Made by a program: the position numbers and the translations under genes. Shown here one piece after another: positions 14,860 through 64,000 of a DNA stretch of 64,000 bases; positions within the stretch are counted from its first letter, which is position 1, and every line of letters starts with the position of its first letter. The notes beneath the pieces were generated by a model. It had not been told where the DNA came from. It did not search any database and saw only the letters and a list, made by a program, of their open reading frames with translations. The DNA is taken from contig OZ024742.1 of the NCBI GenBank assembly GCA_964016885.1, forward strand, positions 19,964,001 to 20,028,000. Direction: 5' to 3'. Source of the DNA: Eledone cirrhosa. Taxonomy: Eukaryota.

Positions 14860-15270
14860 AAGTCGATTAAATCGATCCCATGGCGTTACTGGTACTTTAT
14901 GCTATCAATCCCATAAAGATGAAAGGCAAATTTAAACTCAGAGGGATTTGAACTCAGAAGGAAAAGGGCCATAACTCACAGTCGCAAAGCATGATTCTGC
15001 CATTCATGCTCTACCGATTCTGCCATTCCACCACCCTCATAATGATAATAATAATGGTTTCTGATTTAGGCACAAGGTCAGCAATTTTTGGGACAGAGCG
15101 AAAGTCAATTATATCAACCAAGTGCATTACTGGTGCTTTATTTTATCAACCCTGTAAGGATGAAAGGCAAAGCTATTCTCGGTGGGATTTGAACTCAGAT
15201 CGTAAAGGGCTGTAACTTTATGCCCTAAAGCATATTCTCCGACGCTCTACCGATACTTTTAATCCTTCGT
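14860..15270 (-). mobile_element. Two tandem SINE family A copies
   Basis: Two occurrences of ACTGGT.CTTTAT...GATGAAAGGCAAA...GGATTTGAACTCAGA...CTCTACCGAT. Confidence 0.85.
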
Positions 15271-28136: not shown

Positions 28137-28452
28137 GCTGGATGAGAAACGGGGCAAGTGAGAAAGGGTCACTTACCTTGTTCGTGTGGTGAAGGGAGAT
28201 TAGAACCGTCCCTTTCGCTGGTCATGGGTGTTTCCAAGAGGATGTCAGTGTATATCCTCTTGGTAACCGTCCCTCTGAAGTCTCCAATTGCGTTGCGGAA
28301 TTTTTGTTTTAAAGGTTTGTACTGTTCTATTGAGATTTCGATGATGCTTATGTTTGTCGGGAGAGTTCTTGGTGTTGGTGGGGTGTAGTAGTTTTTTTCT
28401 GTGATGTCTGTGTGCTGCTTTATATATTGTATGAGTTCTTTTTTTGCAATGT

Positions 28453-29346
28453 TTATGGCTGTGTACTTTTTGGGGGGAGGGGTGATTTTGTTGCTGTTTT
28501 CTTCTTGTTGCTGTTTTTAGTGTGTGTGTCTTGTGTTTGCGTTGTTGGTGTTTGTGGTGGTAATGGTGGTGGTGTTGCTGCAAGTTTCCTTGCTGCCTTT
28601 ACCCCTCTTTGTATGCCTTCGCTTTTGGAGGGTGAATCTAAGGGTTTTTTTCTTTTTTCTTTTTTGTGGCAGACCGTTTGCCACTTCACTCCCGCCCCAA
28701 ACTCCATGTCGGATTCTGTGGCGTCTGGGAAGGGTATGTGCTCCACGGCTGTTGGTGGTGGTAGTGGAGCCCTCTTCGGCAATGTTGTTGCTGGTGTAGC
28801 TACTTCAAATGTAGCTATTGGTGTTGCCGCTACTGATGATGCTGCTTTAGTTATCCGTGGCCTTGGTACGGGTGCTACGGACGTTGCCCTCCTACTCAAC
28901 GTGGAAGCGGCTTCTTCGTTTGTTGTCTGCCCTGCTCTTGGTAGCAGCGGCCCAGGTATTGGAAGGAGAGGGGCCTTCTTCGCTGTCTTCTGCGGGCAAA
29001 AGGCCCTGAGGTGACCCTTCGACCCACAGAGATAACATTTTGGCCGTCTTCCTTCTACACTTATAGGGAGTTGGAGTCCTTCCTCGATGTCTATGATATC
29101 GGGGATAGCGTCGATACATTCCTGCTCAGTTTGTATAAGCATTTGCATGCCTATACCTGACCAGTTCTCTCTCCCTATTTTTTCTACTTGCAGCATGGTC
29201 GCCCTGTTCTCGATTCCAGCAAGGACAGACGCGGCCAGCCAAGGTATGGGCACGTCGGGTGGGACCTGGGACACTTTGACCCTCACAATTTTCTGCCCGC
29301 AGTAGGAGGGCACCAAGACTATCTCCTCACTCTTTAGGGTTTCCAA
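28453..29346 (-). CDS. LINE ORF1 (gag-like nucleic-acid-binding protein), 5' part apparently damaged
   Basis: ISVEGRRPKCYLCGSKGHLRAFCP (CX2CX4HX4C) followed by a Pro/Thr/Lys-rich tail. No ATG start in the open region. Confidence 0.8.
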   Translation of the reverse strand: METLKSEEIVLVPSYCGQKIVRVKVSQVPPDVPIPWLAASVLAGIENRATMLQVEKIGRENWSGIGMQMLIQTEQECIDAIPDIIDIEEGLQLPISVEGRRPKCYLCGSKGHLRAFCPQKTAKKAPLLPIPGPLLPRAGQTTNEEAASTLSRRATSVAPVPRPRITKAASSVAATPIATFEVATPATTLPKRAPLPPPTAVEHIPFPDATESDMEFGAGVKWQTVCHKKEKRKKPLDSPSKSEGIQRGVKAARKLAATPPPLPPQTPTTQTQDTHTKNSNKKKTATKSPLPPKSTQP

Positions 29347-29544
29347 AGAGTGAGACTTTGTTTCCTGGAGGGTGGCGAAAAGTACGTCTACTGTGGCGTA
29401 CTTTCTGCTTCGGGTGACTTCTTCTAAACTTTTATCAAATTTAAAACTTCAATAAAAGGTTTAGAACGGTTGAAAACGAGGTAAAACGTTGAAGAAATTT
29501 GGAGGCGATAAGAAGCGTGGCTTCACCAACAATAATAATAATAA

Positions 29545-31594: not shown

Positions 31595-32105
31595 CTCCTC
31601 AAATGAGAGATTAAGTCTAATTATGTGATTTAATGAGGTCAATATTAAGTTTTAATTAAGAAAAGTGCATGTTTGAGTAGTGGTGTGGCGGGGCGGATAG
31701 TTCAGAAGAATCATTTGAGACAGAGGTTGGTTATAATGGATGTAACAGGGAATCTGGTAGACCTGGTAGACCTGGTAGATCTGGTAGACCTGGTAGACCT
31801 GGTAGATCTGGTAGACCTGGTAGACCTGGTAGATCTGGTAGACCTGGTAGACCTGGTAGATCTGGTAGACCTGGTAGACCTGGTAGATCTGGTAGACCTG
31901 GTAGACCTGGTAGACCTGGTAGATCTGGTAGACCTGGAAGACCTGGTAGATCTGGTAGACCTGGCAGACCTGGTAGATCTGGTAGATATGGTAGACCTGG
32001 TAGACCTGGTAGATCTGGTAGATATGGTAGACCTGGTAGGAAGAGAAGAGTTGTTAGTGTGGGAGACTGTGAGGATGTGATATGTTTGATAATGTTGATA
32101 AAACA
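31595..32105 (+). repeat. Arm 1 of an inverted duplication containing a 9-bp minisatellite (CTGGTAGAY)n at about 31754-32038
   Basis: Unique flanks are the reverse complement of 37641-38088 (mirror ORFs MSSGVAGRIV... at 31673+ and 38010-). Confidence 0.9.
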
Positions 32106-37640: not shown

Positions 37641-38088
37641 TGTTTTATCAACATTATCAAACATATCACATCCTCACAGTCTCCCACACTAACAACTCTT
37701 CTCTTCCTACCAGATATACCAGATATACCAGGTCTACCAGATCTACCAGGTCTACCAGATATACCAGATCTACCAGATCTACCAGGTCTACCAGATCTAC
37801 CAGATATACCAGATATACCAGATATACCAGGTCTACCAGATCTACCAGATCTACCAGGTCTACCAGAACTACCAGGTCTACCAGGTCTACCAGGTCTACC
37901 AAATCTACCAGATCTACCAGGTCTACCAGATTCCCTGTTACATCCATTATAACCAACCTCTGTCTCAAATGATTCTTCTGAACTATCCGCCCCGCCACAC
38001 CACTACTCAAACATGCACTTTTCTTAATTAAAACTTAATATTGACCTCATTAAATCACATAATTAGACTTAATCTCTCATTTGAGGAG
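37641..38088 (-). repeat. Arm 2 of the inverted duplication, with a shorter and more diverged 9-bp minisatellite
   Basis: Reverse complement of 31595-32105. Confidence 0.9.
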
Positions 38089-41397: not shown

Positions 41398-41888
41398 GTA
41401 TATATATATATGTATACACACACATATATATATATACACACACACACACATGTATCTCTATATATATATATATATATCAATCAACACACCGTTACCTAAC
41501 ACACACGGATTTATACACACTTACTTACACACACACACACACACACACATATATACATATACACACACGCACAGACACAGACACAGACACACACATGCTG
41601 CCTCACCCATATTATACATTCGTGTATGTACTATATACGACATATTTGAAATAGCTGTGTCTTTAGTTTATGATTAAATATATATATGACGTATGCGTTG
41701 ACCCTCTCATTATTTCGGCATCTGATGTCTACAAAAATAGTTGAAGGTTGTATTTTGTTTCGTTATAGATTTAACGAAAACAAATTTAACAATGTGGCGT
41801 AGTTTTGTGGTGGTAGTAGATGTTCGTAGGTTGTGTATATTAAAACAACGATATCTGTTTATATAGAAATTATATAAGATAAATATAT

Positions 41889-42500
41889 GGGCGGCAAATT
41901 AGAAGAGTAGTTAGAACGTCGGATAGAATGATTTAAAGTATTCATTTCGGCTTTCTGTTCTCATAGTTCAAATCCCGCCTTGGTCAACTTTGTCTTTCAT
42001 TCATTTAAGGTCAATAAAAGAAAGTAGCCGTCAAGTGCTGGGGTTGATTCCTCTTCTATATCTCTTTCTCACCTCAGTTCCCCCACTTTCTCTATCCTTG
42101 GTCAACTCTGACTTTCATCCATTTAAGGTCAATAAAAAAGTACCAGTCTTGAACTGGGGTAGATTCTTCCTCTATATCTCTTTCTCACCCCGATTCTCTA
42201 GCTTTCTCTATCCTTCTCTGGCAGAGTCGTTAAAACGCCAGATAGAATGCTTTGCACTATTCGTTTCGACTTTCTGCTCACTGAGTTCAAATCTCGCCTT
42301 GGTCACTTTTGTCTTTCATCCATTTAAGGTCAACAAAAGAAAGTACCAGTCTAGTACTGGGGCCGATTCTGCCTCTATATCTACTGTATTCAGGCCAGAA
42401 GAAGGATGAATTCCTCCAAGCTTAAAATGGCCAAGAAGCGCCGTATGAGTATGTCAATACGGCGCCCCTACGACTCCCTCGGGAGTTACAGGAACTAAAG
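41889..42500 (+). mobile_element. Cluster of 2-3 tandem SINE family A pieces (alternative-tail subfamily)
   Basis: Repeated CCTTGGTCA.CT.TG.CTTTCAT.CATTTAAGGTCAA and GTTCAAATC B-boxes. Confidence 0.8.
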
Positions 42501-45160: not shown

Positions 45161-45622
45161 TTAACACTTTTGTTAACAATATTTTAAATAAAGGACACTG
45201 CCTATGTGTGTGCAATTTATTTTGAAAGTTATGAAGAATTTAGAGAGTATTGTAATATAAATTAACATTTTCATTATTAGGCTGGTGTAGAGGTGGTGGA
45301 TTGGCAGAATCGGTAGAGCGTCGGACAACATGCTTCGTGGCATAGAGTTACGTCTCTATCCCACCGAGGTTAGTTTGCCTTTCATCCTTACGGGGTCGAT
45401 AAAATAAAGTACCAGTAATGCACTGAAGTCGACTTAATCGACTTTCCCCTCCCCCTAAATTGCTGGCCAAAACCAGAAATCATTATTGGGCCGATAACTT
45501 AACAAAAGCTTCTTATTTAAACTTATGGAAAGTTTTAATTTAAATACAAACAGTTCAAAGCTGACAGTTTTGTACCATAAAACCAGCGGGGGTTTCAGGC
45601 GGGTCGATATTAAAAGGGTTAA
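45161..45622. mobile_element. piggyBac-like MITE (TTAA ends) with a nested SINE A at 45288-45490
   Basis: TTAA|CACTTTTGTTAAC ... GATATTAAAAGGG|TTAA. Confidence 0.55.
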
Positions 45623-46070: not shown

Positions 46071-46250
46071 TGGCTGGTCTGTAATAGTTTCTGATTTAGG
46101 CAAAAGGCCAACACATTTTGAGGGAGAGAAACAGTGCGGTTATTAATAAGAAGAGTTAAAATTAATGCATGCAAGATTTCACAGCGCTAGCATCACTCTT
46201 TCATATTCAGCCTATGTACTTATCAGCCGACCCTCAAATGTGTTATATCA

Positions 46251-46328
46251 AGACGATGAATTGGGAAAGTCGTTAGAAAGTCTGATAGAATGGTTTGGAG
46301 ATTTCGTTGCGGCTCTCTGTGCCCTGAG
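46251..46328 (+). mobile_element. SINE family A 5' head running directly into the satellite
   Basis: AGACGATGAATTGGGAAAGTCGTTAGAAAGTCTGATAGAATGGTTTG...GGCTCTCTGTGCCCTGAG aligns with the heads at 5108, 20415(-), 41889 and 42220. Confidence 0.75.
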
Positions 46329-49300
46329 GTTGACTTTGTCCTGAGGTTGACTTTGTCCTGAGGTTGACTTTGTTCTGAGGTTGACTTTGCTCTGAGGTTG
46401 ACTTTGTCCCGAGGTTTACTTTGTCCTGAGGTTGACTTTGCTCTGAGGTTGACTTTGCTCTGAGGTTGACTTTGCCCTGAGGTTGACTTTGTCCTGAGGT
46501 TGACTTTGTCCTGAGGTTGACTTTGTTCTGAGGTTGACTTTACTCTGAGGTTGACTTTGTCCTGAGGTTGACTTTGTCCCGAGGTTGACTTTGTCCTGAG
46601 GTTGACTTTGCTCTGAGGTTGACTTTGCTCTGAGGTTGACTTTGTCCTGAGGTTGACTTTGTCCTGAGGTTGACTTCGCTCTGAGCTTGATTTTGCTCTG
46701 AGGTTGACTTTGTCCTGAGGTTGACTTTGTCCTGAGGTTGACTTTGTTCTGAGGTTGACTTTGCTCTGAGGTTGACTTTGTCTTGAGGTTGACTTTGTCC
46801 TGAAGTTGACTTTGCTCTGAGGTTGACTTTGCTCTGAGGTTGACTTTGTCCTAAGGTTGACTTTGTCAAGAGGTTACCTTTGCCCTGAGGTTGACTTTGT
46901 CCTGAGGTTGACTTTGCTCTGAGGTTGACTTTGCTCTGAGGTTGATTTTGTTCTGAGGTTGACTTTGCCCTGAGGTTGACTTTGTCCTGAGGTTGACTTT
47001 GCACTGAGGTTGACTTTGTCCTGAGGTTGACTTTGCTCTGAGGTTGACTTTGTCCTGAGGTTGACTTTGTCCTGAGGTTGACTTTGTCCTGAGGTTGACT
47101 TTGCTCTGAGGTTCACTTTGCTCTGAGGTTGACTTTGCTCTGAGGTTGACTTTGTCCTGAGGTTGACTTTGTCCTGAGGTTGACTTTGTTCTGAGGTTGA
47201 CTTTGCTCTGAGGTTGACTTTGTCCCGAGGTTGACTTTGTCCCGAGGTTGACTCTGTCCTGAGGTTGACTTTGCTCTGAGGTTGACTTTGTCTTGAGGTT
47301 GACTTTGTACTGAGGTTGTCTTTGCTCTGAGGTTGACTTTGCTCTGAGGTTGACTTTGTCCTGAGGTTGAATTTGTCCTGAGGTTGACTTTGCTCTGAGG
47401 TTGACTTTGCTCTGAGGTTCACTTTGTCCCGAGGTTGACTTTGTCCCGAGGTTGACTTTGCTCTGAGGTTGACTTTGCCCTGAGGTTGACTTTGTCCTGA
47501 GGTTGACTTTGTCCTGAGGTTGACTTTGTTCCGAGGTTGACTTTGCTCTGAGGTTGACTTTGTCCCCAGGTTGACTTTGTCCCGAGGTTGACTTTGTCCT
47601 GAGGTTGACTTTGCTCTGAGGTTGACTTCGCTCTGTGGTTGACTTTGTCCTGAGGTTGACTTTGTCCTGAGGTTGACTTTGCTCTGAGGTTGACTTTGTC
47701 CTGAGGTTGACTTTGTCCTGAGGTTGACTTTGCTCTGAGGTTCACTTTGCTCTGAGGTTGACTTTGCTCTGAGGTTGACTTTGTCCTGAGGTTGACTTTG
47801 TCCTGAGGTTGACTTTGTTCTGAGGTTGACTTTGCTCTGAGGTTGACTTTGTCTCGAGGTTGACTTTGTTCCGAGGTTGACTTTGTCCTGAGGTTGACTT
47901 TGCTCTGAGGTTGACTTTGTCTTGAGGTTGACTTTGTCCTGAGGTTGACTTTGCTCTGAGGTTGACTTTGCTCTGAGGTTGACTTTGTCCTGAGGTTGAC
48001 TTTGTCCTGAGGTTGACTTTGCTCTGAGGTTGACTTTGCTCTGAGGTTGACTTTGTCCCGAGGTTGACTTTGTCCCAAGGTTGACTTTGTCCTGAGGTTG
48101 ATATGCTCTGAGGTTGACTTTGTCCTGTGGTTGACTTTGTCTTGAGGTTGACTTTGTCCTGAGGTTGACTTTGCTCTGAGGTTGACTTTGCTCTGAGGTT
48201 GACTTTGTCCTGAGGTTGACTTTGTCCTGAGGTTGACTTTGCTCTGAGGTTGACTTTGCTCTGAGGTTGACTTTGTCCCGAGGTTGACTTTGTCCCGAGG
48301 TTGACTTTGTCCTGAGGTTGACTTTGTCCTGATGTTGATTTTGCTCTGAGGTTGACTTTGCTCTGAGGTTGACTTGTCCTGTGGTTGACATTGTCCTGAG
48401 GTTGACTTTGCCCTGAGGTTGACTTTGTCCTGAGGTTGACTTTGTCCTGAGGTTGACTTTGCCCTGAGGTTGACTTTGCTCTGAGGCTGACTTTGCTCTG
48501 AGGTTGACTTTGTCCTGAGGTTGACTTTGTCCTGAGGTTGACTTTGTCCTGGGGTTGACTTTGTCCTGAGGTTGACTTTGTCCTGAGGTTGAATTGGCTC
48601 TGAGGTTGACTTTGCTCTGAGGTTGACTTTGTCCCGAGGTTGACTTTGTCCCAAGGTTGACTTTGTCCTGAGGTTGATATGCTCTGAGGTTGACTTTGTC
48701 CTGTGGTTGACTTTGTCTTGAGGTTGACTTTGTCCTGAGGTTGACTTTGCTCTGAGGTTGACTTTGCTCTGAGGTTGACTTTGTCCTGAGGTTGACTTTG
48801 TCCTGAGGTTGACTTTGCTCTGAGGTTGACTTTGCTCTGAGGTTGACTTTGTCCCGAGGTTGACTTTGTCCCGAGGTTGACTTTGTCCTGAGGTTGACTT
48901 TGCTCTGAGGTTCACTTCGTCATGAGGCTGACTTTGCTCTGAGGTTGACTTTTTCCTGAGGTTGATTTTGTCCTGAGGTTGACTTTGCTCTGAGGTTGAC
49001 TTTGCTCTGAGGTTGACTTTGCTCTGAGGTTCACTTCGTCCTGAGGCTGACTTTGCTCTGAGGTTGACTTTGTCCTGAGGTTGACTTTGTCCTGAGGTTG
49101 ACTTTGCTCTGAGGTTGACTTTGTCCTGAGGTTGACTTTGTCCTGAGATTGACTTTGTCCTGAGGTTGACTTTGCTCTGAGGTTGACTTTGCTCTGAGGT
49201 TGACTTTGTCCTGAGGTTGACTTTGTCCTGAGGTTGAGTTTGCTTTGAGGTTGACTTTGCTCTGAGGTTGACTTTGTCCTGAGGTTGACTTTGCTCTGAT

Positions 49301-52300
49301 GTTGACTTTTTCCTGAGGTTGACTTTGCTCTGAGGTTGACTTTATCCTGAGGTTGACTTTGTCCTGAGGTTGACTTTGCTCTGAGGTTGACTTTGTCCTG
49401 AGGTTGACTTTGTCCTGAGGTTGAATTGGCTCTGAGGTTGACTTTGCTCTGAGGTTCACTTCGTCCTGAGGCTGACTTTGCTCTGAGGTTGACTTTGTCC
49501 TGAGGTTGATTTTGTCCTGAGGTTGACTTTGCTCTGAGGTTGACTTTGTCCTGAGGTTGACTTTGTCCTGAGATTGACTTTGTCCTGAGGTTAACTTTGT
49601 CCTGAGGTTGACTTTGCTCTGAGGTTGACTTTGTCCTGAGGTTGACTTTGCTCTGAGGTTGATTTTGCTCTGAGGTTGACTTTGTCCTGAGGTTGACTTT
49701 GCTCTGAGGTTGACTTTGCTCTGAGGTTGACTTTGCTCTGAGGTTCACTTCGTCCTGAGGCTGACTTTGCTCTGAGGTTGACTTTGTCCTGAGGTTGACT
49801 TTGTCCTGAGGTTGACTTTGCTCTGAGGTTGACTTTGTCCTGAGGTTGACTTTGTCCTGAGATTGACTTTGTCCTGAGGTTGACTTTGCTCTGAGGTTGA
49901 CTTTGCTCTGAGGTTGACTTTGTCCTGAGGTTGACTTTGTCCTGAGGTTGACTTTGCTTTGAGGTTGACTTTGCTCTGAGGTTGACTTTGTCCTGAGGTT
50001 GACTTTGCTCTGATGTTGACTTTTTCCTGAGGTTGACTTTGCTCTGAGGTTGACTTTATCCTGAGGTTGACTTTGTCCTGAGGTTGACTTTGCTCTGAGG
50101 TTGACTTTGTCCTGAGGTTGACTTTGTCCTGAGGTTGACTTTGTCCTGAGGTTGACTTTGTCCTGAGGTTGACTTTGCTCTGAGGTTGACTTTGTCCTGA
50201 GGTTGACTTTGCTCTGAGGTTGACTTTGTCCTGAGGTTGACTTTGCCCTGAGGTTGACTTTGTCCTGAGGTTGACTTTGTCCTGAGGTTGACTCTGCCCT
50301 GAGGTTGACTTTGTCCTGAGGTTGACTTTGCTCTGAGCTTGACTTTGCTCTGAGGTTGACTTTGTCCTGAGGTTGACTTTGTCCTGAGGTTGACTTTGCT
50401 CTGAGGTTGACTTTGCTCTGAGGTTGACTTTGTCTTGAGGTTGACTTTGTCCTGAGGTTGACTTTGCTCTGAGGTTGACTTTGCTCTGAGGTTGACTTTG
50501 TCCTGAGGTTGACTTTGTCTTGAGGTTGACTTTGCCCTGAGGTTGACTTTGTCCTGAGGTTGACTTTGCTCTGAGGTTGACTTTGCTCTGAGGTTGATTT
50601 TGTTCTGAGGTTGACTTTGCCCTAAGGTTGATTTTGCTCTGAGGTTGACTTTGTCCTGAGGTTGACTTTATCCTGAGGTTGACTTTGTCCTGAGGTTGAC
50701 TTTGCTCTGAGGTTCACTTTGCTCTGAGGTTGACTTTGCTCTGAGGTTGACTTTGTCCTGAGGTTGACTTTGTCCTGAGGTTGACTTTGTTCTGAGGTTG
50801 ACTTTGCTCTGAGGATGACTTTGTCCCGAGGTTGACTTTGTCCCGAGGTTGACTTTGTCCTGAGGTTGACTTTGCTCTGAGGTTGACTTTGCTCTGAGGT
50901 TCACTTTGCTCTGAGGTTCACTTAGTCCTGAGGCTGACTTTGCTCTGAGGTTGACTTTGTCTTGAGGTTGACTTTGTACTGAGGTTGACTTTGCTCTGAG
51001 GTTGACTTTGCTCTGAGGTTGACTTTGCTCTGAGGTTCACTTCGTCCTGAGGCTGACTTTGCTCTGAGGTTGACTTTGTCTTGAGGTTGACTTTGTACTG
51101 AGGTTGACTTTGCTCTGAGGTTGACTTTGCTCTGAGGTTGACTTTGTCCTGAGTTTGAATTTGTCCTGAGGTTGACTTTGCTCTGAGGTTGACTTTGTCC
51201 TGAGTTTGAATTTGTCCTGAGGTTGACTTTGCTCTGAGGTTGACTTTGCTCTGAGGTTGACTTTGTCCCGAGGTTGACTTTGTCCCGAGGTTGACTTTGC
51301 TCTGAGGTTGACTTTGCCCTGAGGTTGACTTTGTCCTGAGGTTGACTTTGCTCTGAGGTTGACTTTGCTCTGAGGTTGACTTTGTCCTGAGTTTGAATTT
51401 GTCCTGAGGTTGACTTTGTTCCGAGGTTGACTTGACTCTGAGGTTGACTTTGTCCCGAGGTTGACTTTGTCCCGAGGTTGACTTTGTCCTGAGGTTGACT
51501 TTGCTCTGAGGTTGACTTTGTCCTGAGGTTGACTTTGCTCTGAGGTTGACTTTGTCCTGAGGTTGACTTTGTCCCGAGGTTGACTTTGTCCTGAGGTTGA
51601 CTTAGCCCTGAGGTTGACTTTCTCCTGAGGTTGACTTTGCTCTGAGGTTGACTTTGTCCTGAGGTTGACTTTGTCCTGAGGTTGACTTTGTCCTGAGGTT
51701 GACTTTGCTATGAGGTTCACTTTGTCCTGAGGTTGACTTTGTCCTGAGGTTGACTTTGTCCTGAGGTTGACTTAGCCCTGAGGTTGACTTTGCCCTGAGG
51801 TTGACTTTGCCCTGAGGTTGACTTTGCTCTGAGGTTGACTTTGTCCCGAGGTTGACATTGTCCCGAGGTTGACTTTGCTCTGAGGTTGACTTTGCCCTGA
51901 GGTTGACTTTGCCCTGAGGTTGACTTTGTCCTGAGGTTGACTTTGTTCTGAGGTTGACTTTGCTCTGAGGTTGACTTTGTCCCGAGGTTGACTTTGTCCC
52001 GGGGTTGACTTTGTCATGAGGTTGACTTTGCTCTGAGGTTGACTTTGTCTTGAGGTTGACTATGTCCTGAGGTTGACTTTGCTCTGAGGTTGACTTTGCT
52101 CTGAGGTTGACTTTGTCCTGAGGTTGACTTTGTCCTGATGTTGACTTTGCTCTGAGGTTGACTTTGCTCTGAGGTTGACTTTGTCCTGTGGTTGACTTTG
52201 TCTTGAGGTTGACTTTGTCCTGAGGTTGACTTTGCTCTGAGGTTGACTTTGCCCTGAGGTTGACTTTGTCCTGAGGTTGACTTGGTCCTGAGGTTGACTT

Positions 52301-55300
52301 TACTCTGAGGTTGATTTTACTCTGAGGTTGACTTTGTCCCGAGGTTGACTTTGTCTTGAGGTTGACTTTGTCCTGAGGTTGACTTTGTCCTGATGTTGAC
52401 TTTGCTCTGAGGTTGACTTTGCTCTGAGGTTGACTTTGTCCTGTGGTTGACTTTGCTCTGAGGTTGATTTTGCCCTGAGGTTGACTTTGTCCTGAGGTTG
52501 ACTTTGTCCTGAGGTTGACTTTGCCCTGAGGTTGACTTTGCTCTGAGACTGACTTTGCTCTGAGGTTGACTTTGTCCTGAGGTTGACTTTGTCCTGAGGT
52601 TGACTTTGTCCTGAGGTTGACTTTGCTCTGAGCTTGACTTTGCTCTGAGGTTGACTTTGCTCTGAGGTTGACTTTGTCCCGAGGTTGACTTTGTCCCGAG
52701 GTTGACTTTGTCCTGAGGTTGACTTTGTCCTGATGTTGACTTTGCTCTGAGCTTGACTTTGCTCTGAGGTTGACTTTGCTCTGAGGTTGACTTTGTCCCG
52801 AGGTTGACTTTGTCCCGAGGTTGACTTTGTCCTGCGGTTGACTTTGTCCTGATGTTGACTTTGCTCTGAGGTTGACTTTGCTCTGAGGTTGACTTTGTCC
52901 TGTGGTTGACTTTGTCCTGATGTTGACTTTGTCCTGAGGTTGACTTTGCCCTGAGGTTGACTTTGCTCTGAGGCTGACTTTGCTCTGAGGTTGACTTTGT
53001 CCTGAGTTTGACTTTGTCCTGAGGTTGACTTTGTCCTGAGGTTGACTTTGCTCTGAGCTTGACTTTGCTCTGAGGTTGACTTTGTCCTGAGGTTGACTTT
53101 GTCCTGAGGTTGACTTTGTCCTGAGGTTGACTTTGTCCTGAGGTTGACTTTGCTCTGAGGCTGACTTTGCTCTGAGGTTGACTTTGTCCTGAGGTTGACT
53201 TTGCCCTGAGGTTGACTTTGTCCTGGGGTTGACTTTGTCCTGAGGTTGACTTTGTCCTGAGGTTGAATTGGCTCTGAGGTTGACTTTGCTCTGAGGTTGA
53301 CATTGTCCCGAGGTTGACTTTGTCCCAAGGTTGACTTTGTCCTGAGGTTGATATGCTCTGAGGTTGACTTTGTCCTGTGGTTGACTTTGTCTTGAGGTTG
53401 ACTTTGTCCTGAGGTTGACTTTGCTCTGAGGTTGACTTTGCTCTGAGGTTGACTTTGTCCTGAGGTTGACTTTGTCCTGAGGTTGACTTTGCTCTGAGGT
53501 TGACTTTGCTCTGAGGTTGACTTTGTCCCGAGGTTGACTTTGTCCCGAGGTTGACTTTGTCCTGAGGTTGACTTTGTCCTGATGTTGACTTTGCTCTGAG
53601 GTTGACTTTGCTCTGAGGTTGACTTTGTCCTGTGGTTGACATTGTCCTGAGGTTGACTTTGCCCTGAGGTTGACTTTGTCCTGAGGTTGACTTTGTCCTG
53701 AGGTTGACTTTGCCCTGAGGTTGACTTTGCTCTGAGGCTGACTTTGCTCTGAGGTTGACTTTGTCCTGAGGTTGACTTTGTCCTGAGGTTGACTTTGTCC
53801 TGAGGTTGACTTTGTCCTGGGGTTGACTTTGTCCTGAGGTTGACTTTGTCCTGAGGTTGAATTGGCTCTGAGGTTGACTTTGCTCTGAGGTTGACTTTGC
53901 TCTGAGGTTGACTTTGTTCTGAGGTTGACTTTGCTCTTAGGTTGACTTTGCCCTGAGGTTGACTTTGTCCTGAGGTTGACTTTGCTCTGAGGTTGACTTT
54001 GCTCTGAGGTTGATTTTGTTCTGAGGTTGACTTTGCCCTGAGGTTGATTTTGCTCTGAGGTTGACTTTGTCCTGAGGTTGACTTTATCCTGAGGTTGACT
54101 TTGTCCTGAGGTTGACTTTGCTCTGAGGTTCACTTTGCTCTGCGGTTGACTTTGCTCTGAGGTTGACTTTGTCCTGAGGTTGACTTTGTCCTGAGGTTGA
54201 CTTTGTTCTGAGGTTGACTTTGCTCTGAGGATGACTTTGTCCCGAGGTTGACTTTGTCCCGTGGTTGACTTTGTCCTGAGGTTGACTTTGCTCTGAGGTT
54301 GACTTTGCTCTGAGGTTGACTTTTCTCTGAGGTTCACTTCGTCCTGAGGCTGACTTTGCTCTGAGGTTGACTTTGTCTTGAGGTTGACTTTGTACTGAGG
54401 TTGACTTTGCTCTAAGGTTGACTTTGCTCTGAGGTTGACTTTGCTCTGAGGTTCACTTCGTCCTGAGGCTGACTTTGCTCTGAGGTTGACTTTGTCCTGA
54501 GATTGACTTTGTCCTGAGGTTAACTTTGTCCTGAGGTTGACTTTGCTCTGAGGTTGACTTTGTCCTGAGGTTGACTTTGCTCTGAGGTTGATTTTGCTCT
54601 GAGGTTGACTTTGTCCTGAGGTTGACTTTGCTCTGAGGTTGACTTTGCTCTGAGGTTGACTTTGCTCTGAGGTTCACTTCGTCCTGAGGCTGACTTTGCT
54701 CTGAGGTTGACTTTGTCCTGAGGTTGACTTTGTCCTGAGGTTGACTTTGCTCTGAGGTTGACTTTGTCCTGAGGTTGACTTTGTCCTGAGATTGACTTTG
54801 TCCTGAGGTTGACTTTGCTCTGAGGTTGACTTTGCTCTGAGGTTGACTTTGTCCTGAGGTTGACTTTGTCCTGAGGTTGACTTTGCTTTGAGGTTGACTT
54901 TGCTCTGAGGTTGACTTTGTCCTGAGGTTGACTTTGCTCTGATGTTGACTTTTTCCTGAGGTTGACTTTGCTCTGAGGTTGACTTTATCCTGAGGTTGAC
55001 TTTGTCCTGAGGTTGACTTTGCTCTGAGGTTGACTTTGTCCTGAGGTTGACTTTGTCCTGAGGTTGACTTTGTCCTGAGGTTGACTTTGTCCTGAGGTTG
55101 ACTTTGCTCTGAGGTTGACTTTGTCCTGAGGTTGACTTTGCTCTGAGGTTGACTTTGTCCTGAGGTTGACTTTGCCCTGAGGTTGACTTTGTCCTGAGGT
55201 TGACTTTGTCCTGAGGTTGACTCTGCCCTGAGGTTGACTTTGTCCTGAGGTTGACTTTGCTCTGAGCTTGACTTTGCTCTGAGGTTGACTTTGTCCTGAG

Positions 55301-58300
55301 GTTGACTTTGTCCTGAGGTTGACTTTGCTCTGAGGTTGACTTTGCTCTGAGGTTGACTTTGTCTTGAGGTTGACTTTGTCCTGAGGTTGACTTTGCTCTG
55401 AGGTTGACTTTGCTCTGAGGTTGACTTTGTCCTGAGGTTGACTTTGTCTTGAGGTTGACTTTGCCCTGAGGTTGACTTTGTCCTGAGGTTGACTTTGCTC
55501 TGAGGTTGACTTTGCTCTGAGGTTGATTTTGTTCTGAGGTTGACTTTGCCCTAAGGTTGATTTTGCTCTGAGGTTGACTTTGTCCTGAGGTTGACTTTAT
55601 CCTGAGGTTGACTTTGTCCTGAGGTTGACTTTGCTCTGAGGTTCACTTTGCTCTGAGGTTGACTTTGCTCTGAGGTTGACTTTGTCCTGAGGTTGACTTT
55701 GTCCTGAGGTTGACTTTGTTCTGAGGTTGACTTTGCTCTGAGGATGACTTTGTCCCGAGGTTGACTTTGTCCCGAGGTTGACTTTGTCCTGAGGTTGACT
55801 TTGCTCTGAGGTTGACTTTGCTCTGAGGTTCACTTTGCTCTGAGGTTCACTTAGTCCTGAGGCTGACTTTGCTCTGAGGTTGACTTTGTCTTGAGGTTGA
55901 CTTTGTACTGAGGTTGACTTTGCTCTGAGGTTGACTTTGCTCTGAGGTTGACTTTGCTCTGAGGTTCACTTCGTCCTGAGGCTGACTTTGCTCTGAGGTT
56001 GACTTTGTCTTGAGGTTGACTTTGTACTGAGGTTGACTTTGCTCTGAGGTTGACTTTGCTCTGAGGTTGACTTTGTCCTGAGTTTGAATTTGTCCTGAGG
56101 TTGACTTTGCTCTGAGGTTGACTTTGTCCTGAGTTTGAATTTGTCCTGAGGTTGACTTTGCTCTGAGGTTGACTTTGCTCTGAGGTTGACTTTGTCCCGA
56201 GGTTGACTTTGTCCCGAGGTTGACTTTGCTCTGAGGTTGACTTTGCCCTGAGGTTGACTTTGTCCTGAGGTTGACTTTGCTCTGAGGTTGACTTTGCTCT
56301 GAGGTTGACTTTGTCCTGAGTTTGAATTTGTCCTGAGGTTGACTTTGTTCCGAGGTTGACTTGACTCTGAGGTTGACTTTGTCCCGAGGTTGACTTTGTC
56401 CCGAGGTTGACTTTGTCCTGAGGTTGACTTTGCTCTGAGGTTGACTTTGTCCTGAGGTTGACTTTGCTCTGAGGTTGACTTTGTCCTGAGGTTGACTTTG
56501 TCCCGAGGTTGACTTTGTCCTGAGGTTGACTTAGCCCTGAGGTTGACTTTCTCCTGAGGTTGACTTTGCTCTGAGGTTGACTTTGTCCTGAGGTTGACTT
56601 TGTCCTGAGGTTGACTTTGTCCTGAGGTTGACTTTGCTATGAGGTTCACTTTGTCCTGAGGTTGACTTTGTCCTGAGGTTGACTTTGTCCTGAGGTTGAC
56701 TTAGCCCTGAGGTTGACTTTGCCCTGAGGTTGACTTTGCCCTGAGGTTGACTTTGCTCTGAGGTTGACTTTGTCCCGAGGTTGACATTGTCCCGAGGTTG
56801 ACTTTGCTCTGAGGTTGACTTTGCCCTGAGGTTGACTTTGCCCTGAGGTTGACTTTGTCCTGAGGTTGACTTTGTTCTGAGGTTGACTTTGCTCTGAGGT
56901 TGACTTTGTCCCGAGGTTGACTTTGTCCCGGGGTTGACTTTGTCATGAGGTTGACTTTGCTCTGAGGTTGACTTTGTCTTGAGGTTGACTATGTCCTGAG
57001 GTTGACTTTGCTCTGAGGTTGACTTTGCTCTGAGGTTGACTTTGTCCTGAGGTTGACTTTGTCCTGATGTTGACTTTGCTCTGAGGTTGACTTTGCTCTG
57101 AGGTTGACTTTGTCCTGTGGTTGACTTTGTCTTGAGGTTGACTTTGTCCTGAGGTTGACTTTGCTCTGAGGTTGACTTTGCCCTGAGGTTGACTTTGTCC
57201 TGAGGTTGACTTGGTCCTGAGGTTGACTTTACTCTGAGGTTGATTTTACTCTGAGGTTGACTTTGTCCCGAGGTTGACTTTGTCTTGAGGTTGACTTTGT
57301 CCTGAGGTTGACTTTGTCCTGATGTTGACTTTGCTCTGAGGTTGACTTTGCTCTGAGGTTGACTTTGTCCTGTGGTTGACTTTGCTCTGAGGTTGATTTT
57401 GCCCTGAGGTTGACTTTGTCCTGAGGTTGACTTTGTCCTGAGGTTGACTTTGCCCTGAGGTTGACTTTGCTCTGAGACTGACTTTGCTCTGAGGTTGACT
57501 TTGTCCTGAGGTTGACTTTGTCCTGAGGTTGACTTTGTCCTGAGGTTGACTTTGCTCTGAGCTTGACTTTGCTCTGAGGTTGACTTTGCTCTGAGGTTGA
57601 CTTTGTCCCGAGGTTGACTTTGTCCCGAGGTTGACTTTGTCCTGAGGTTGACTTTGTCCTGATGTTGACTTTGCTCTGAGCTTGACTTTGCTCTGAGGTT
57701 GACTTTGCTCTGAGGTTGACTTTGTCCCGAGGTTGACTTTGTCCCGAGGTTGACTTTGTCCTGCGGTTGACTTTGTCCTGATGTTGACTTTGCTCTGAGG
57801 TTGACTTTGCTCTGAGGTTGACTTTGTCCTGTGGTTGACTTTGTCCTGATGTTGACTTTGTCCTGAGGTTGACTTTGCCCTGAGGTTGACTTTGCTCTGA
57901 GGCTGACTTTGCTCTGAGGTTGACTTTGTCCTGAGTTTGACTTTGTCCTGAGGTTGACTTTGTCCTGAGGTTGACTTTGCTCTGAGCTTGACTTTGCTCT
58001 GAGGTTGACTTTGTCCTGAGGTTGACTTTGTCCTGAGGTTGACTTTGTCCTGAGGTTGACTTTGTCCTGAGGTTGACTTTGCTCTGAGGCTGACTTTGCT
58101 CTGAGGTTGACTTTGTCCTGAGGTTGACTTTGCCCTGAGGTTGACTTTGTCCTGGGGTTGACTTTGTCCTGAGGTTGACTTTGTCCTGAGGTTGAATTGG
58201 CTCTGAGGTTGACTTTGCTCTGAGGTTGACTTTGTCCCGAGGTTGACTTTGTCCCAAGGTTGACTTTGTCCTGAGGTTGATATGCTCTGAGGTTGACTTT

Positions 58301-61300
58301 GTCCTGTGGTTGACTTTGTCTTGAGGTTGACTTTGTCCTGAGGTTGACTTTGCTCTGAGGTTGACTTTGCTCTGAGGTTGACTTTGTCCTGAGGTTGACT
58401 TTGTCCTGAGGTTGACTTTGCTCTGAGGTTGACTTTGCTCTGAGGTTGACTTTGTCCCGAGGTTGACTTTGTCCCGAGGTTGACTTTGTCCTGAGGTTGA
58501 CTTTGTCCTGATGTTGACTTTGCTCTGAGGTTGACTTTGCTCTGAGGTTGACTTTGTCCTGTGGTTGACATTGTCCTGAGGTTGACTTTGCCCTGAGGTT
58601 GACTTTGTCCTGAGGTTGACTTTGTCCTGAGGTTGACTTTGCCCTGAGGTTGACTTTGCTCTGAGGCTGACTTTGCTCTGAGGTTGACTTTGTCCTGAGG
58701 TTGACTTTGTCCTGAGGTTGACTTTGTCCTGAGGTTGACTTTGTCCTGGGGTTGACTTTGTCCTGAGGTTGACTTTGTCCTGAGGTTGAATTGGCTCTGA
58801 GGTTGACTTTGCTCTGAGGTTGACTTTGCTCTGAGGTTGACTTTGTTCTGAGGTTGACTTTGCTCTTAGGTTGACTTTGCCCTGAGGTTGACTTTGTCCT
58901 GAGGTTGACTTTGCTCTGAGGTTGACTTTGCTCTGAGGTTGATTTTGTTCTGAGGTTGACTTTGCCCTGAGGTTGATTTTGCTCTGAGGTTGACTTTGTC
59001 CTGAGGTTGACTTTATCCTGAGGTTGACTTTGTCCTGAGGTTGACTTTGCTCTGAGGTTCACTTTGCTCTGCGGTTGACTTTGCTCTGAGGTTGACTTTG
59101 TCCTGAGGTTGACTTTGTCCTGAGGTTGACTTTGTTCTGAGGTTGACTTTGCTCTGAGGATGACTTTGTCCCGAGGTTGACTTTGTCCCGTGGTTGACTT
59201 TGTCCTGAGGTTGACTTTGCTCTGAGGTTGACTTTGCTCTGAGGTTGACTTTTCTCTGAGGTTCACTTCGTCCTGAGGCTGACTTTGCTCTGAGGTTGAC
59301 TTTGTCTTGAGGTTGACTTTGTACTGAGGTTGACTTTGCTCTAAGGTTGACTTTGCTCTGAGGTTGACTTTGCTCTGAGGTTCACTTCGTCCTGAGGCTG
59401 ACTTTGCTCTGAGGTTGACTTTGTCTTGAGGTTGACTTTGTACTGAGGTTGACCTTGCTCTGAGGTTGACTTTGCTCTGAGGTTGACTTTGTCCTGAGTT
59501 TGAATTTGTCCTGAGGTTGACTTTGCTCTGAGGTTGACTTTGTCCTGAGTTTGAATTTGTCCTGAGGTTGACTTTGCTCTGAGCTTGACTTTGCTCTGAG
59601 GTTGACTTTGTCCCGAGGTTGACTTTGTCCCGAGGTTGACTTTGCTCTGAGGTTGACTTTGCCCTGAGGTAGACTTTGTCGTGAGGTTGACTTTGCTCTG
59701 AGGTTGACTTTGCTCTGAGGTTGACTTTGTCCTGAGTTTGAATTTGTCCTGAGGTTGACTTTGTTCCGAGGTTGACTTGACTCTGAGGTTGACTTTGTAC
59801 CGAGGTTGACTTTGTCCCGAGGTTGACTTTGTCCTGAGGTTGACTTTGATCTGAGGTTGACTTCGCTCTGTGGTTGACTTTGTCCTGAGGTTGACTTTGT
59901 CCTGAGGTTGACTTTGTTCTGAGGTTGATTTTGTCCTGAGGTTGACTTTGTCCTGAGGTTGACTTTGCTCTGAGGTTCACTTTGCTCTGAGTTTGACTTT
60001 GCTCTGAGGTTGACTTTGTCCTGAGGTTGACTTTGTCCTGAGGTTGACTTGGCTCTGAGGTTGACTTTGTCCTGAGGTTGACTTTGTCCTGAGATTGACT
60101 TTGTCCTGAGGTTGACTTTGTCCTGAGGTTGACTTTGCTCTGACGTTTACTTTGTCCTGAGGTTGACTTTGCCCTGAGGTTGATTTTGCTCTGAGGTTGA
60201 CTTTGTCCTGAGGTTGACTTTGCTCTGAGGTTGACTTTGCTCTGAGGTTGACTTTGCTCTGAGGTTCACTTCGTCCTGAGGCTGACTTTGCTCTGAGGTT
60301 GACTTTGTCCTGAGGTTGACTTTGTCCTGAGGTTGACTTTGCTCTGAGGTTGACTTTGTCCTAAGGTTGACTTTGTCCTGAGATTGACTTTGTCCTGAGG
60401 TTGACTTTGTCCTGAGGTTGACTTTGCTTTGAGGTTGACTTTGCTCTGAGGTTGACTTCGTCCTGAGGTTGACTTTGCTCTGAGGTTGACTTTGTCCTGA
60501 GGTTGACTTTGTCCTGAGGTTGACTTTGTCCTGAGGTTGACTTTGTCCTGAGGTTGACTTTGCTCTGAGGTTGACTTTGTCCCGAGGTTGACTTTGTCCC
60601 GAGGTTGACTTTGTCCTGCGGTTGACTTTGTCCTGATGTTGACTTTGCTCTGAGGTTGACTTTGCTCTGAGGTTGACTTTGTCCTGTGGTTGACTTTGTC
60701 CTGATGTTGACTTTGTCCTGAGGTTGACTTTGCCCTGAGGTTGACTTTGCTCTGAGGCTGACTTTGCTCTGAGGTTGACTTTGTCCTGAGTTTGACTTTG
60801 TCCTGAGGTTGACTTTGTCCTGAGGTTGACTTTGCTCTGAGCTTGACTTTGCTCTGAGGTTGACTTTGTCCTGAGGTTGACTTTGTCCTGAGGTTGACTT
60901 TGTCCTGAGGTTGACTTTGTCCTGAGGTTGACTTTGCCCTGAGGTTGACTTTGCTCTGAGGCTGACTTTGCTCTGAGGTTGACTTTGTCCTGAGGTTGAC
61001 TTTGCCCTGAGGTTGACTTTGTCCTGGGGTTGACTTTGTCCTGAGGTTGACTTTGTCCTGAGGTTGAATTGGCTCTGAGGTTGACTTTGCTCTGAGGTTG
61101 ACTTTGTCCCGAGGTTGACTTTGTCCCAAGGTTGACTTTGTCCTGAGATTGATATGCTCTGAGGTTGACTTTGTCCTGTGGTTGACTTTGTCTTGAGGTT
61201 GACTTTGTCCTGAGGTTGACTTTGCTCTGAGGTTGACTTTGCTCTGAGGTTGACTTTGTCCTGAGGTTGACTTTGTCCTGAGGTTGACTTTGCTCTGAGG

Positions 61301-64000
61301 TTGACTTTGCTCTGAGGTTGACTTTGTCCCGAGGTTGACTTTGTCCCGAGGTTGACTTTGTCCTGAGGTTGACTTTGTCCTGATGTTGACTTTGCTCTGA
61401 GGTTGACTTTGCTCTGAGGTTGACTTTGTCCTGTGGTTGACATTGTCCTGAGGTTGACTTTGCCCTGAGGTTGACTTTGTCCTGAGGTTGACTTTGTCCT
61501 GAGGTTGACTTTGCCCTGAGGTTGACTTTGCTCTGAGGCTGACTTTGCTCTGAGGTTGACTTTGTCCTGAGGTTGACTTTGTCCTGAGGTTGACTTTGTC
61601 CTGAGGTTGACTTTGTCCTGGGGTTGACTTTGTCCTGAGGTTGACTTTGTCCTGAGGTTGAATTGGCTCTGAGGTTGACTTTGCTCTGAGGTTGACTTTG
61701 CTCTGAGGTTGACTTTGTTCTGAGGTTGACTTTGCTCTGAGGTTGACTTTGCCCTGAGGTTGACTTTGTCCTGAGGTTGACTTTGCTCTGAGGTTGACTT
61801 TGCTCTGAGGTTGATTTTGTTCTGAGGTTGACTTTGCCCTGAGGTTGATTTTGCTCTGAGGTTGACTTTGTCCTGAGGTTGACTTTATCCTGAGGTTGAC
61901 TTTGTCCTGAGGTTGACTTTGCTCTGAGGTTCACTTTGCTCTGCGGTTGACTTTGCTCTGAGGTTGACTTTGTCCTGAGGTTGACTTTGTCCTGAGGTTG
62001 ACTTTGTTCTGAGGTTGACTTTGCTCTGAGGATGACTTTGTCCCGAGGTTGACTTTGTCCCGTGGTTGACTTTGTCCTGAGGTTGACTTTGCTCTGAGGT
62101 TGACTTTGCTCTGAGGTTGACTTTTCTCTGAGGTTCACTTCGTCCTGAGGCTGACTTTGCTCTGAGGTTGACTTTGTCTTGAGGTTGACTTTGTACTGAG
62201 GTTGACTTTGCTCTAAGGTTGACTTTGCTCTGAGGTTGACTTTGCTCTGAGGTTCACTTCGTCCTGAGGCTGACTTTGCTCTGAGGTTGACTTTGTCTTG
62301 AGGTTGACTTTGTACTGAGGTTGACCTTGCTCTGAGGTTGACTTTGCTCTGAGGTTGACTTTGTCCTGAGTTTGAATTTGTCCTGAGGTTGACTTTGCTC
62401 TGAGGTTGACTTTGTCCTGAGTTTGAATTTGTCCTGAGGTTGACTTTGCTCTGAGGTTGACTTTGCTCTGAGGTTGACTTTGTCCTGAGTTTGAATTTGT
62501 CCTGAGGTTGACTTTGTTCCGAGGTTGACTTGACTCTGAGGTTGACTTTGTACCGAGGTTGACTTTGTCCCGAGGTTGACTTTGTCCTGAGGTTGACTTT
62601 GATCTGAGGTTGACTTCGCTCTGTGGTTGACTTTGTCCTGAGGTTGACTTTGTCCTGAGGTTGACTTTGCTCTGACGTTTACTTTGTCCTGAGGTTGACT
62701 TTGCCCTGAGGTTGATTTTGCTCTGAGGTTGACTTTGTCCTGAGGTTGACTTTGCTCTGAGGTTGACTTTGCTCTGAGGTTGACTTTGCTCTGAGGTTCA
62801 CTTCGTCCTGAGGCTGACTTTGCTCTGAGGTTGACTTTGTCTTGAGGTTGACTTTGTACTGAGGTTGACTTTGCTCTAAGGTTGACTTTGCTCTGAGGTT
62901 GACTTTGCTCTGAGGTTCACTTCGTCCTGAGGCTGACTTTGCTCTGAGGTTGACTTTGTCTTGAGGTTGACTTTGTACTGAGGTTGACCTTGCTCTGAGG
63001 TTGACTTTGCTCTGAGGTTGACTTTGTCCTGAGTTTGAATTTGTCCTGAGGTTGACTTTGCTCTGAGGTTGACTTTGTCCTGAGTTTGAATTTGTCCTGA
63101 GGTTGACTTTGCTCTGAGCTTGACTTTGCTCTGAGGTTGACTTTGTCCCGAGGTTGACTTTGTCCCGAGGTTGACTTTGCTCTGAGGTTGACTTTGCCCT
63201 GAGGTAGACTTTGTCGTGAGGTTGACTTTGCTCTGAGGTTGACTTTGCTCTGAGGTTGACTTTGTCCTGAGTTTGAATTTGTCCTGAGGTTGACTTTGTT
63301 CCGAGGTTGACTTGACTCTGAGGTTGACTTTGTACCGAGGTTGACTTTGTCCCGAGGTTGACTTTGTCCTGAGGTTGACTTTGATCTGAGGTTGACTTCG
63401 CTCTGTGGTTGACTTTGTCCTGAGGTTGACTTTGTCCTGAGGTTGACTTTGTTCTGAGGTTGATTTTGTCCTGAGGTTGACTTTGTCCTGAGGTTGACTT
63501 TGCTCTGAGGTTCACTTTGCTCTGAGTTTGACTTTGCTCTGAGGTTGACTTTGTCCTGAGGTTGACTTTGTCCTGAGGTTGACTTGGCTCTGAGGTTGAC
63601 TTTGTCCTGAGGTTGACTTTGTCCTGAGATTGACTTTGTCCTGAGGTTGACTTTGTCCTGAGGTTGACTTTGCTCTGACGTTTACTTTGTCCTGAGGTTG
63701 ACTTTGCCCTGAGGTTGATTTTGCTCTGAGGTTGACTTTGTCCTGAGGTTGACTTTGCTCTGAGGTTGACTTTGCTCTGAGGTTGACTTTGCTCTGAGGT
63801 TCACTTCGTCCTGAGGCTGACTTTGCTCTGAGGTTGACTTTGTCCTGAGGTTGACTTTGTCCTGAGGTTGACTTTGCTCTGAGGTTGACTTTGTCCTAAG
63901 GTTGACTTTGTCCTGAGATTGACTTTGTCCTGAGGTTGACTTTGTCCTGAGGTTGACTTTGCTTTGAGGTTGACTTTGCTCTGAGGTTGACTTCGTCCTG
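46324..64000. repeat. 17-bp satellite array CTGAGGTTGACTTTG(TC|CT), about 1040 units, continuing past the window end
   Basis: Direct reading; higher-order duplications with offsets 4929, 2872 and 3535 bp from identical ORF translations. Confidence 0.99.

What the first reader, a model, noticed from the sequence alone, without database searches (positions are those of the whole stretch)
46251..46400. Birth of a >17-kb satellite from inside a SINE
Seen: a SINE A head (46251-46328) runs without a break into the first satellite unit. Intact SINEs here read ...CTCTCTGT...GAGTT(C/T)AAATCTC(A/G)CCGAGGTCGACTTTGCC (e.g. 20415-20300 minus). At the array edge the sequence jumps from CTGAG to GTTGACTTTGTC at the shared GAG, dropping the B-box. 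The 17-mer CTGAGGTTGACTTTG(TC/CT) closely matches the SINE motif CCGAGGTCGACTTTGCC, with CpG-type changes. Inference: the progenitor junction of a SINE-derived satellite is preserved.
Basis: partly seen in the sequence, partly recalled or inferred. Interest (0 to 1): 0.78.

Follow-up and report, generated by a model that had tools for sequence, protein, structure and literature searches.

The report
34-kb satellite grown inside one SINE
A 34-kb block of about 2,000 copies of a 17-base repeat sits inside one old copy of a short mobile element whose two halves still flank it, so the repeat likely grew in place from that element, an unusually large and clear case of a known way that repeat arrays arise.

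Summary
Confirmed and extended. The SINE head (46251-46328) runs into the array, which continues past the window for 2,007 units (34,109 bp). It ends in register on the 3' half of the same SINE subfamily. The array is single-locus: 775 of 775 exact dimer hits in the 3.0-Gb assembly lie in it. The host copy lacks the 16-nt B-box segment. At least 4 of 30 sampled copies elsewhere carry the same deletion unexpanded. One of them has the same kind of 6-of-7 direct repeat 17 bp apart that brackets the array. Likely history: insertion, B-box deletion, slippage, then kilobase block duplications (largest 290 units, 1 difference in 4,946 bases). Corrections: the CpG derivation is not established, the motif is no hotspot and it forms no hairpin. 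No orthologous unexpanded allele was found. SINE-derived tandem repeats are known from squamates, mouse B1 and human Alu, and this scan earlier noted a similar 74-kb case in another genome. New member of a known kind; no function shown.

The parts
46238..46250 (+). Candidate decayed target-site duplication, left copy. The right copy lies beyond the window at extended 80660-80672 (G000:C3:20044660-20044672).
   Evidence: 9 of 11 identical, score 5. The host flank paired with other copies' flanks scored at most 3 (10 pairs); 1 of 30 mismatched pairs reached 5. Suggestive only.
46251..46328 (+). 5' half of the host SINE: head with a degenerate A-box-like motif near 46262-46272, ending at the GAG where the 16-nt B-box segment is missing
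   Evidence: 56 of 74 identical to the subfamily consensus. The A-box label is from recalled Pol III promoter consensus.
46317..46323 (+). Left copy of the 7-nt imperfect direct repeat (CTGTGCC). The right copy (CTTTGCC) ends the array at extended 80426-80432. They are 17 bp apart when the array is collapsed to one unit.
   Evidence: 6 of 7, best of offsets 12-23; one search prints both edges
46324..64000 (+). In-window part of the 17-bp array (about 1,040 of 2,007 units). The whole array is extended 46324-80432 = G000:C3:20010324-20044432, 34,109 bp. Beyond the window it is followed in register by the 3' half of the host SINE (extended 80433-80660; L012:6433-6660; G000:C3:20044433-20044660).
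   Evidence: for the 3' half (score 180 to the host subfamily against 70 to the other subfamily, shuffle maximum 32)
46324..49550 (+). Left edge layer of the array (units 1-190), not part of any long recent block duplication, rich in private variants
49551..59425 (+). Largest recent block duplication: 49551-54496 copied at 54480-59425 (lag 290 units, 4,929 bp)
   Evidence: 1 difference in 4,946 bases

Best explanation
The array lies inside one old SINE copy with both halves in place, and it likely grew there in three inferred steps: loss of the 16-base B-box segment, slippage between two short near-identical words that this loss left 17 bases apart, and repeated kilobase block duplications. 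Shown: the nesting, the missing B-box, the flanking 6-of-7 direct repeat, the single location and the near-identical internal blocks. Inferred: the order (deletion before first duplication), slippage as the first event, and unequal sister or homologue exchange (or conversion-like copying) as the cause of the block duplications. It is most likely neutral, with no function; the host SINE has lost its B-box and is split by 34 kb, so it would be dead as a Pol III template.
For: Nesting: head and tail both fit the same SINE subfamily best (head score 81 vs 40, tail 180 vs 70), and the array ends in register. Deletion: L089, L094, L102 and L114 carry the same 16-nt deletion unexpanded (4 clear cases of 30 loci examined, from 526 pattern hits). 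The reciprocal 16-bp duplication recurs among the first 100 of 200 B-box dimer hits. Seed: L089 has a 6-of-7 repeat at offset 17 like the host; L114 has 5 of 7 at offset 17; L094's best is at offset 19. Dimers of this core elsewhere have periods such as 14, 15, 16, 19, 22 and 27; 1 of the 69 hits has period 17 (L166, two copies, different junction). Growth: 1,710 of 2,007 units lie in long duplicated blocks (score 35 or more; shuffled order reaches 6), with 0-3 differences per block except one older block with 8. 26 of 30 private unit variants sit in the outer 300 units (edges chosen after seeing the data). Age: the host is 75-85% like the consensus, as are six window copies (73-87%), while units are 97% alike at positions 1-15. 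The flanking-repeat model (Haber and Louis) is described in PMC6947457 and PMC3389668 (passages seen).
Against: No orthologous unexpanded allele was found, so the order of steps is not observed. The left CTGTGCC may be a partial unit that overwrote the flank rather than a pre-existing seed: TG at that position occurs in only 2, and CC in 8, of the first 100 of 1,104 intact copies listed (hand count). The host subfamily reads GTCAAC where the unit reads GTTGAC, so two further changes or a variant source copy are needed. Nothing explains why this copy reached 2,007 units when the next largest array measured has about 61. Some near-perfect blocks could be assembly duplication.
Confidence: 0.75

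Rival explanations
1. Same in-place birth, other order: the 17-mer just downstream of the B-box duplicated first in an intact SINE, and the B-box was lost later, by deletion or by being overwritten as the array exchanged with the similar CTGAG upstream.
For: The unit equals a contiguous 17-mer of the intact SINE apart from substitutions. The CC-ending unit closes the array. Units with C at position 2 (CCGAG type) exist (152 of 1,996).
Against: The intact consensus has no direct repeat at offset 17 (read). Duplications of this core in B-box-bearing copies show other periods, 15 most often. The first and last units both start CTGAG, and CC-starting units follow mostly TC-ending units (132 of 151), as expected for a derived variant. 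The same deletion exists without any array.
Confidence: 0.17
2. The nesting is real but the length and block structure are partly an assembly artefact (haplotype mixing or false duplication inside a repeat longer than the reads).
For: Several blocks of 0.7-1.4 kb are 100% identical and the largest differs at 1 of 4,946 bases. 34 kb may exceed read length. No long reads were available to me.
Against: The blocks form a nested, many-copy history with 0-8 differences. In run X4, contigs on the last units sum to depth about 4,775 against about 4.7 for a 124-of-124 flank contig. That is the same order as the 1,498 array words within 2 mismatches. The tool warns that this depth is no copy number, and X4 may be the source sample.
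Confidence: 0.12
3. A satellite born elsewhere was inserted or recombined into this SINE, or between two SINE copies, through sequence similarity.
For: SINE copies are very dense (156,556 exact core matches), so recombination between copies is possible. The head (75%) is somewhat more diverged from the consensus than the tail (85%).
Against: No donor array exists in the assembly. Head and tail are the same subfamily, in register, with a candidate target duplication around the whole element. The head-tail gap is like that of the copy at 20415 (78% vs 86%).
Confidence: 0.04

Closest known systems
SINE-derived satellites (sSat1-3) of squamate reptiles, Vassetzky, Kosushkin and Ryskov 2023 (PMC10702118; parts 1, 3 and 4 of 5 of the text read)
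   Same: Tandem array of an internal SINE segment with SINE sequence at the array ends. The paper reports an uncommon variant with both SINE termini, loci of up to 1,000 units, and more uniform units in longer loci.
   Different: Their units are about 70-290 nt and most families are multi-locus with a subtelomeric tendency. Here the unit is 17 bp, there is one locus of 2,007 units, the unit likely spans a deletion junction, and the host is likely not a reptile.
[quoted passage not shown] 1998) and Alu-derived human minisatellites (Jurka and Gentles 2006); seen only as table entries and references in PMC6947457
   Same: A short unit amplified from inside a SINE copy; origin explained by short flanking direct repeats.
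   Different: That table lists shorter units, (GGCAGA)n and (CGGGAGGC)n. By recall these recur in many SINE copies, whereas this unit is confined to one locus. Instability is in the title of the mouse paper and is untested here.
TE-derived tandem repeats of the human genome, Ahmed and Liang 2012 (PMC3389668; passages and section 9 part 2 read)
   Same: At least 23% of human mini/satellites derive from TEs; 300 of 7,276 have flanking direct repeats, mostly 7 bp, as here.
   Different: The paper says the majority of its remaining 6,817 repeats have only two units; this array has about 2,000.
Octopus tRNA-derived CORE-SINEs OR1/OR2 (named in PMC4824008 and PMC4758252; passages seen)
   Same: By recall, the host element's layout (A/B-box head, conserved central segment shared by two subfamilies in this genome, different tails) resembles them.
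   Different: Not tested: no sequence of OR1/OR2 or of the CORE domain was found in the supplements searched (one file each was not searchable).

Membership tests
SINE-derived tandem repeat (minisatellite/satellite) | Unit homologous to a segment of a SINE | tested here: met
   The unit matches the SINE segment after the B-box; the last unit continues into the SINE tail
SINE-derived tandem repeat (minisatellite/satellite) | Head-to-tail array of at least four middle units | tested here: met
   2,007 units, 1,997 of them 17 bp and 10 of them 16 bp (last unit trimmed to its 17 bases)
SINE-derived tandem repeat (minisatellite/satellite) | Terminal units continue into the parent SINE | tested here: met
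   Both ends, same subfamily
Classical satellite DNA family | Dispersed to several loci or chromosomes | tested here: not met
   775 of 775 and 1127 of 1128 hits lie in one array; unassembled arrays cannot be excluded
Classical satellite DNA family | Heterochromatic, centromeric or telomeric location | not testable with these tools
   20.0 Mb along a 378.9-Mb contig; no chromatin data
Haber-Louis minisatellite origin | Array flanked by 5-10 bp direct repeats one unit apart | tested here: met
   6 of 7 at offset 17; whether the left copy predates the array is not shown
Hypermutable minisatellite / expanded simple tandem repeat | High germline length mutation and allele-length variation | not testable with these tools
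   Only one assembly; short reads show presence only
tRNA-derived SINE (host element) | A and B boxes, high interspersed copy number, short length | tested here: met
   A/B-like motifs in the aligned copies (box consensus recalled); 156,556 exact core matches
tRNA-derived SINE (host element) | Similarity to a tRNA model | tested here: inconclusive
   No tRNA hit among 50 Rfam matches at E up to 1 in 4 loci; SINE heads are often too diverged (recalled)
tRNA-derived SINE (host element) | Target-site duplication | tested here: inconclusive
   Host candidate 9 of 11; 2 of 5 other full-length copies score 4-5; 1 of 30 mismatched pairs reaches the host score
CORE-SINE superfamily (OR1/OR2) | About 60-bp CORE domain homology | not tested
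   No reference sequence obtained

The most novel reading that the evidence does not exclude
This is a satellite caught before dispersal: a single, still-turning-over array that has passed from slippage growth to kilobase unequal exchange, with old edges and a young centre. The same genome holds its whole series, from a seeded but unexpanded copy (L089) through arrays of 2 to 61 units to 2,007. At the boldest, the array is highly length-variable between individuals and already nucleates its own heterochromatin, which would let one test what lets one copy among more than 150,000 run away.
Probability: 0.25. Interest if true: 0.65.

Novelty: new member of a known kind. Interest (0 to 1): 0.38.

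Why it matters
The first duplication that starts a minisatellite is rarely seen, because turnover erases the flanks. Here both junctions survive, a look-alike seed allele exists elsewhere in the genome, and the variant order records the later growth. That makes the locus a clean test case for the flanking-repeat model and for the step from minisatellite to satellite. It also gives a likely hypervariable single-locus marker. It does not reveal a new mechanism or a function. My paper searches (listings seen) showed no report of such an array in a cephalopod; the library lacks most subscription journals, and the host group is my inference.

Tried and rejected
Hotspot motif: rejected. Dimer patterns of equal form gave 69 matches for the satellite's core, 200 for the B-box and 223 for the downstream motif; these are matches, not loci. 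Hairpin-driven expansion: rejected. Four 102-nt folds had z = +0.27 to +1.31 against shuffles. CpG decay as the source of the unit: not established. Orthologous allele from public runs: laid X4, X5, X1 and X2 on the left flank and returned only repeat-derived pieces; no listed piece spanned the junction, and two stretches had no cover, which proves nothing. One search (X4, X3, X6, X7 on the right junction) listed no piece running from the tail into a single-unit allele; X3 had no cover on the first unit bases, which is weak since contigs show presence only. X1-X3 were small-share rows. Rfam gave only low-complexity matches below gathering score. A recalled link to MetaSINE/Sauria was dropped: 0 occurrences of Sauria in PMC4824008. 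The search for the mouse MMS10 literature found 0 papers; the Gilbert and Labuda paper was not held. The automatic head/tail flags chose the wrong strand for several loci because the core is nearly palindromic, so I used only its printed sequences and the TRF measures. No host gene was sought beyond ORF lists, which showed retroelement-like frames by my reading and simple-repeat frames; short exons would be missed. The look-up of earlier notes on this genome was empty.

Full report
Setting. The window is G000:C3:19964001-20028000 in a 2,995,841,428-base assembly of 1,796 contigs. It is AT-rich, full of microsatellites and of two related SINE subfamilies. From recall the SINE type and genome size suggest an octopod cephalopod; this is an inference and was not tested. 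'Extended' coordinates continue the window numbering into L011-L020.

Observation. The sequence from 46245 to 46328 matches six other SINE copies in the window (75-78%). From 46251 it aligns without gaps to the consensus of its subfamily up to GAG at 46326-46328 (score 81, shuffle maximum 30). Intact copies continue with a 16-nt segment that carries the B-box and ends in a second GAG. The host skips it and enters the array. TRF gives period 17 and 1040.2 copies to the window end.

Far end. The last core lies at extended 80418, with no gap over 120 bases between cores. The last unit ends in TTTGCC and is followed by the SINE 3' half. This tail scores 180 to the host subfamily and 70 to the other; the head scores 81 and 40. 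The consensus was built from 29 loci chosen by likeness to this tail, which favours the tail score; the head was not used in choosing them. Homology runs to about 80660. A 9-of-11 direct repeat brackets the whole element, above all 10 host-specific null pairs and reached by 1 of 30 mismatched pairs, so a decayed target duplication is possible but not shown. The array is 46324-80432, 34,109 bp, 2,007 units of 109 types.

Uniqueness. An exact two-unit pattern has 775 forward and 0 reverse matches in the genome, and 775 are counted in the window plus the next 100 kb. A looser pattern (periods 14-25) has 1127 forward and 1 reverse, with all 1127 in this array. Arrays missing from the assembly cannot be excluded.

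Origin of the unit. The 16-nt deletion is not peculiar to this copy. Of 30 loci examined from 526 matches to a deleted-type pattern, four show exactly this deletion (L089, L094, L102, L114), and a few diverged copies may too; about half are intact copies with point changes. Intact cores have 156,556 matches to a similar pattern, so deleted copies are a small minority. The reciprocal event, a 16-bp duplication across the same two GAG words, recurs in the listing and has made a 9-copy array at L232. With the array collapsed to one unit, CTGTGCC (46317-46323) and CTTTGCC lie 17 bp apart, 6 of 7 identical, the best of offsets 12-23. L089 has an equivalent 6-of-7 repeat at offset 17 and no array; L114 has 5 of 7; L094 and L102 do not have offset 17 among their best three. 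TG at that position is a minority state in intact copies (CT 61, TT 13, CA 11, CC 4, AT 3, CG 2, TG 2, TA 2, others 2 of the first 100 of 1,104, hand count); CG, CA and TG together hint at a CpG-bearing subtype. I therefore infer deletion first, then slippage between the two words, as in the Haber-Louis model (PMC6947457, passage seen). The left word could instead be a partial unit. The outer edges both read TGCC, so a CC-ending unit (115 of 1,996) is the likely ancestor of the common TC (1,055) and CT (727) endings, each by one change (inference).

Growth. Positions 1-15 of the units are 97% identical to the consensus, while the host SINE is 75% (head) and 85% (tail) like its consensus, within the 73-87% of six window copies. 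So the present array is likely much younger than the insertion, though turnover can hide an older start. 1,710 of 2,007 units lie in long duplicated blocks: lags of 290, 208, 193, 136 and 129 units among others, with 0-3 differences per block and 8 in the block nearest the right end. Units 1-190 and 1969-2007 lie outside such blocks, and 26 of 30 private variants are in the outer 300 units (boundaries set afterwards, and duplication itself removes private variants). A greedy parse needs 683 new units and 21 copied blocks to build 2,006 units. This fits growth from the middle by unequal exchange or long conversion tracts (inference).

Context in the genome. Internal duplications of this SINE family are common and not tied to this motif: 69, 200 and 223 matches for three motifs (the last two listed only their first 100). 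I measured 18 loci picked for having several hits or known arrays: 3 to 61 units, periods 14-27, 51-1,218 bp. L237 (22 bp x 24) and L172 (19 bp x 24) keep both SINE halves; L228 is the longest, and its printed flanks show no SINE by eye. The totals of these searches leave no room for another array near 2,000 units with those exact cores. The units do not fold better than shuffles.

Reads. The run search gave 8 rows, none holding half the words. The left flank gave only repeat noise. On the right junction, X4 has a contig identical over 124 bases of the tail, contigs on the last units at summed depth about 4,775 against about 4.7 on that contig, and joints that go back by whole units; X4 may be the source sample. 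Raw reads of X6 and X7 (other samples, same species label, one study) give depth 3 each on the units and 2 reads each with such a joint; X6 also has depth 1-6 on the flank beyond the SINE. So the tandem unit is seen outside the assembly, on very few reads for X6 and X7. No unexpanded orthologue was found.

Known kinds. Squamate SINE-derived satellites include an uncommon form with both SINE ends, loci of up to 1,000 units, and units of about 70-290 nt (PMC10702118, parts 1, 3, 4 of 5). Minisatellites from mouse B1 and human Alu are listed in PMC6947457 (the original papers were not seen). 23% of human mini/satellites derive from TEs (PMC3389668). This scan earlier noted a 74-kb array inside a SINE and a 115-kb array inside a Penelope-like copy in other genomes (unchecked notes). 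The host element may be an octopus CORE-SINE (OR1/OR2 named in PMC4824008 and PMC4758252), but this was not tested; one supplementary file of each paper could not be searched and may hold the needed sequences. PMC12988792 mentions octopus SINEs but has 0 occurrences of 'satellite' (passages).

Verdict. It is a new member of a known kind, notable for its size, its single location and a look-alike seed allele elsewhere in the genome. No function is shown. Interest 0.38.

Noticed in passing
L237:2204-2733 (G000:C3, minus) and L172:3155-3609 (G000:C8, plus): Two independent arrays (22 bp x 24 and 19 bp x 24) grown from the same SINE segment, each with the SINE head and tail still flanking; L172 also lacks a B-box.
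   Followed up: partly
L228:3287-4504, L229:2367-3227, L173:3287-3692, L230:2406-2784: Further arrays whose units carry SINE motifs: 20 bp x 61, 15 bp x 57, 27 bp x 15, 20 bp x 19. L228's printed flanks show no SINE sequence by eye.
   Followed up: partly
L154:1487-1707, L155:1955-2161: Short arrays at the 5' end of SINE copies that lack a head; several other copies also begin right at the near-palindromic core. Some first duplications may arise at 5' truncation junctions during insertion; untested.
   Followed up: no
window 45292-45470: A copy of the second SINE subfamily with a 17-nt deletion over the same B-box region, 800 bases left of the array.
   Followed up: no
window 14930-14962 (minus): A SINE copy with a 16-bp duplication of the B-box segment, the reciprocal of the host's deletion.
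   Followed up: no
window 41887-42400: Tandem run of SINE pieces with a 116-bp duplication.
   Followed up: no
extended 89967-90941, 101433-103487, 107510-111786 (G000:C3, add 19,964,000): Three more sizeable minisatellites within 32 kb downstream: 44 bp x 22, 48 bp x 44, 31 bp x 138. The region may favour tandem expansion; no genome background was measured.
   Followed up: no
window 24723-29448 (minus) and 2049-3101 (minus): Broken frames that read like non-LTR retrotransposon endonuclease and reverse-transcriptase pieces by eye; not run against a family library.
   Followed up: no
window 31754-32039 and 37707-37931: Two 9-bp arrays (32 and 25 copies) with related units on opposite strands.
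   Followed up: no
window 46123-46240: The stretch just left of the SINE head is itself a high-copy repeat (40 other hits listed at 79-93%); L003 has the same repeat followed by a B-box-bearing SINE, 79% alike, so not a recent duplicate.
   Followed up: partly
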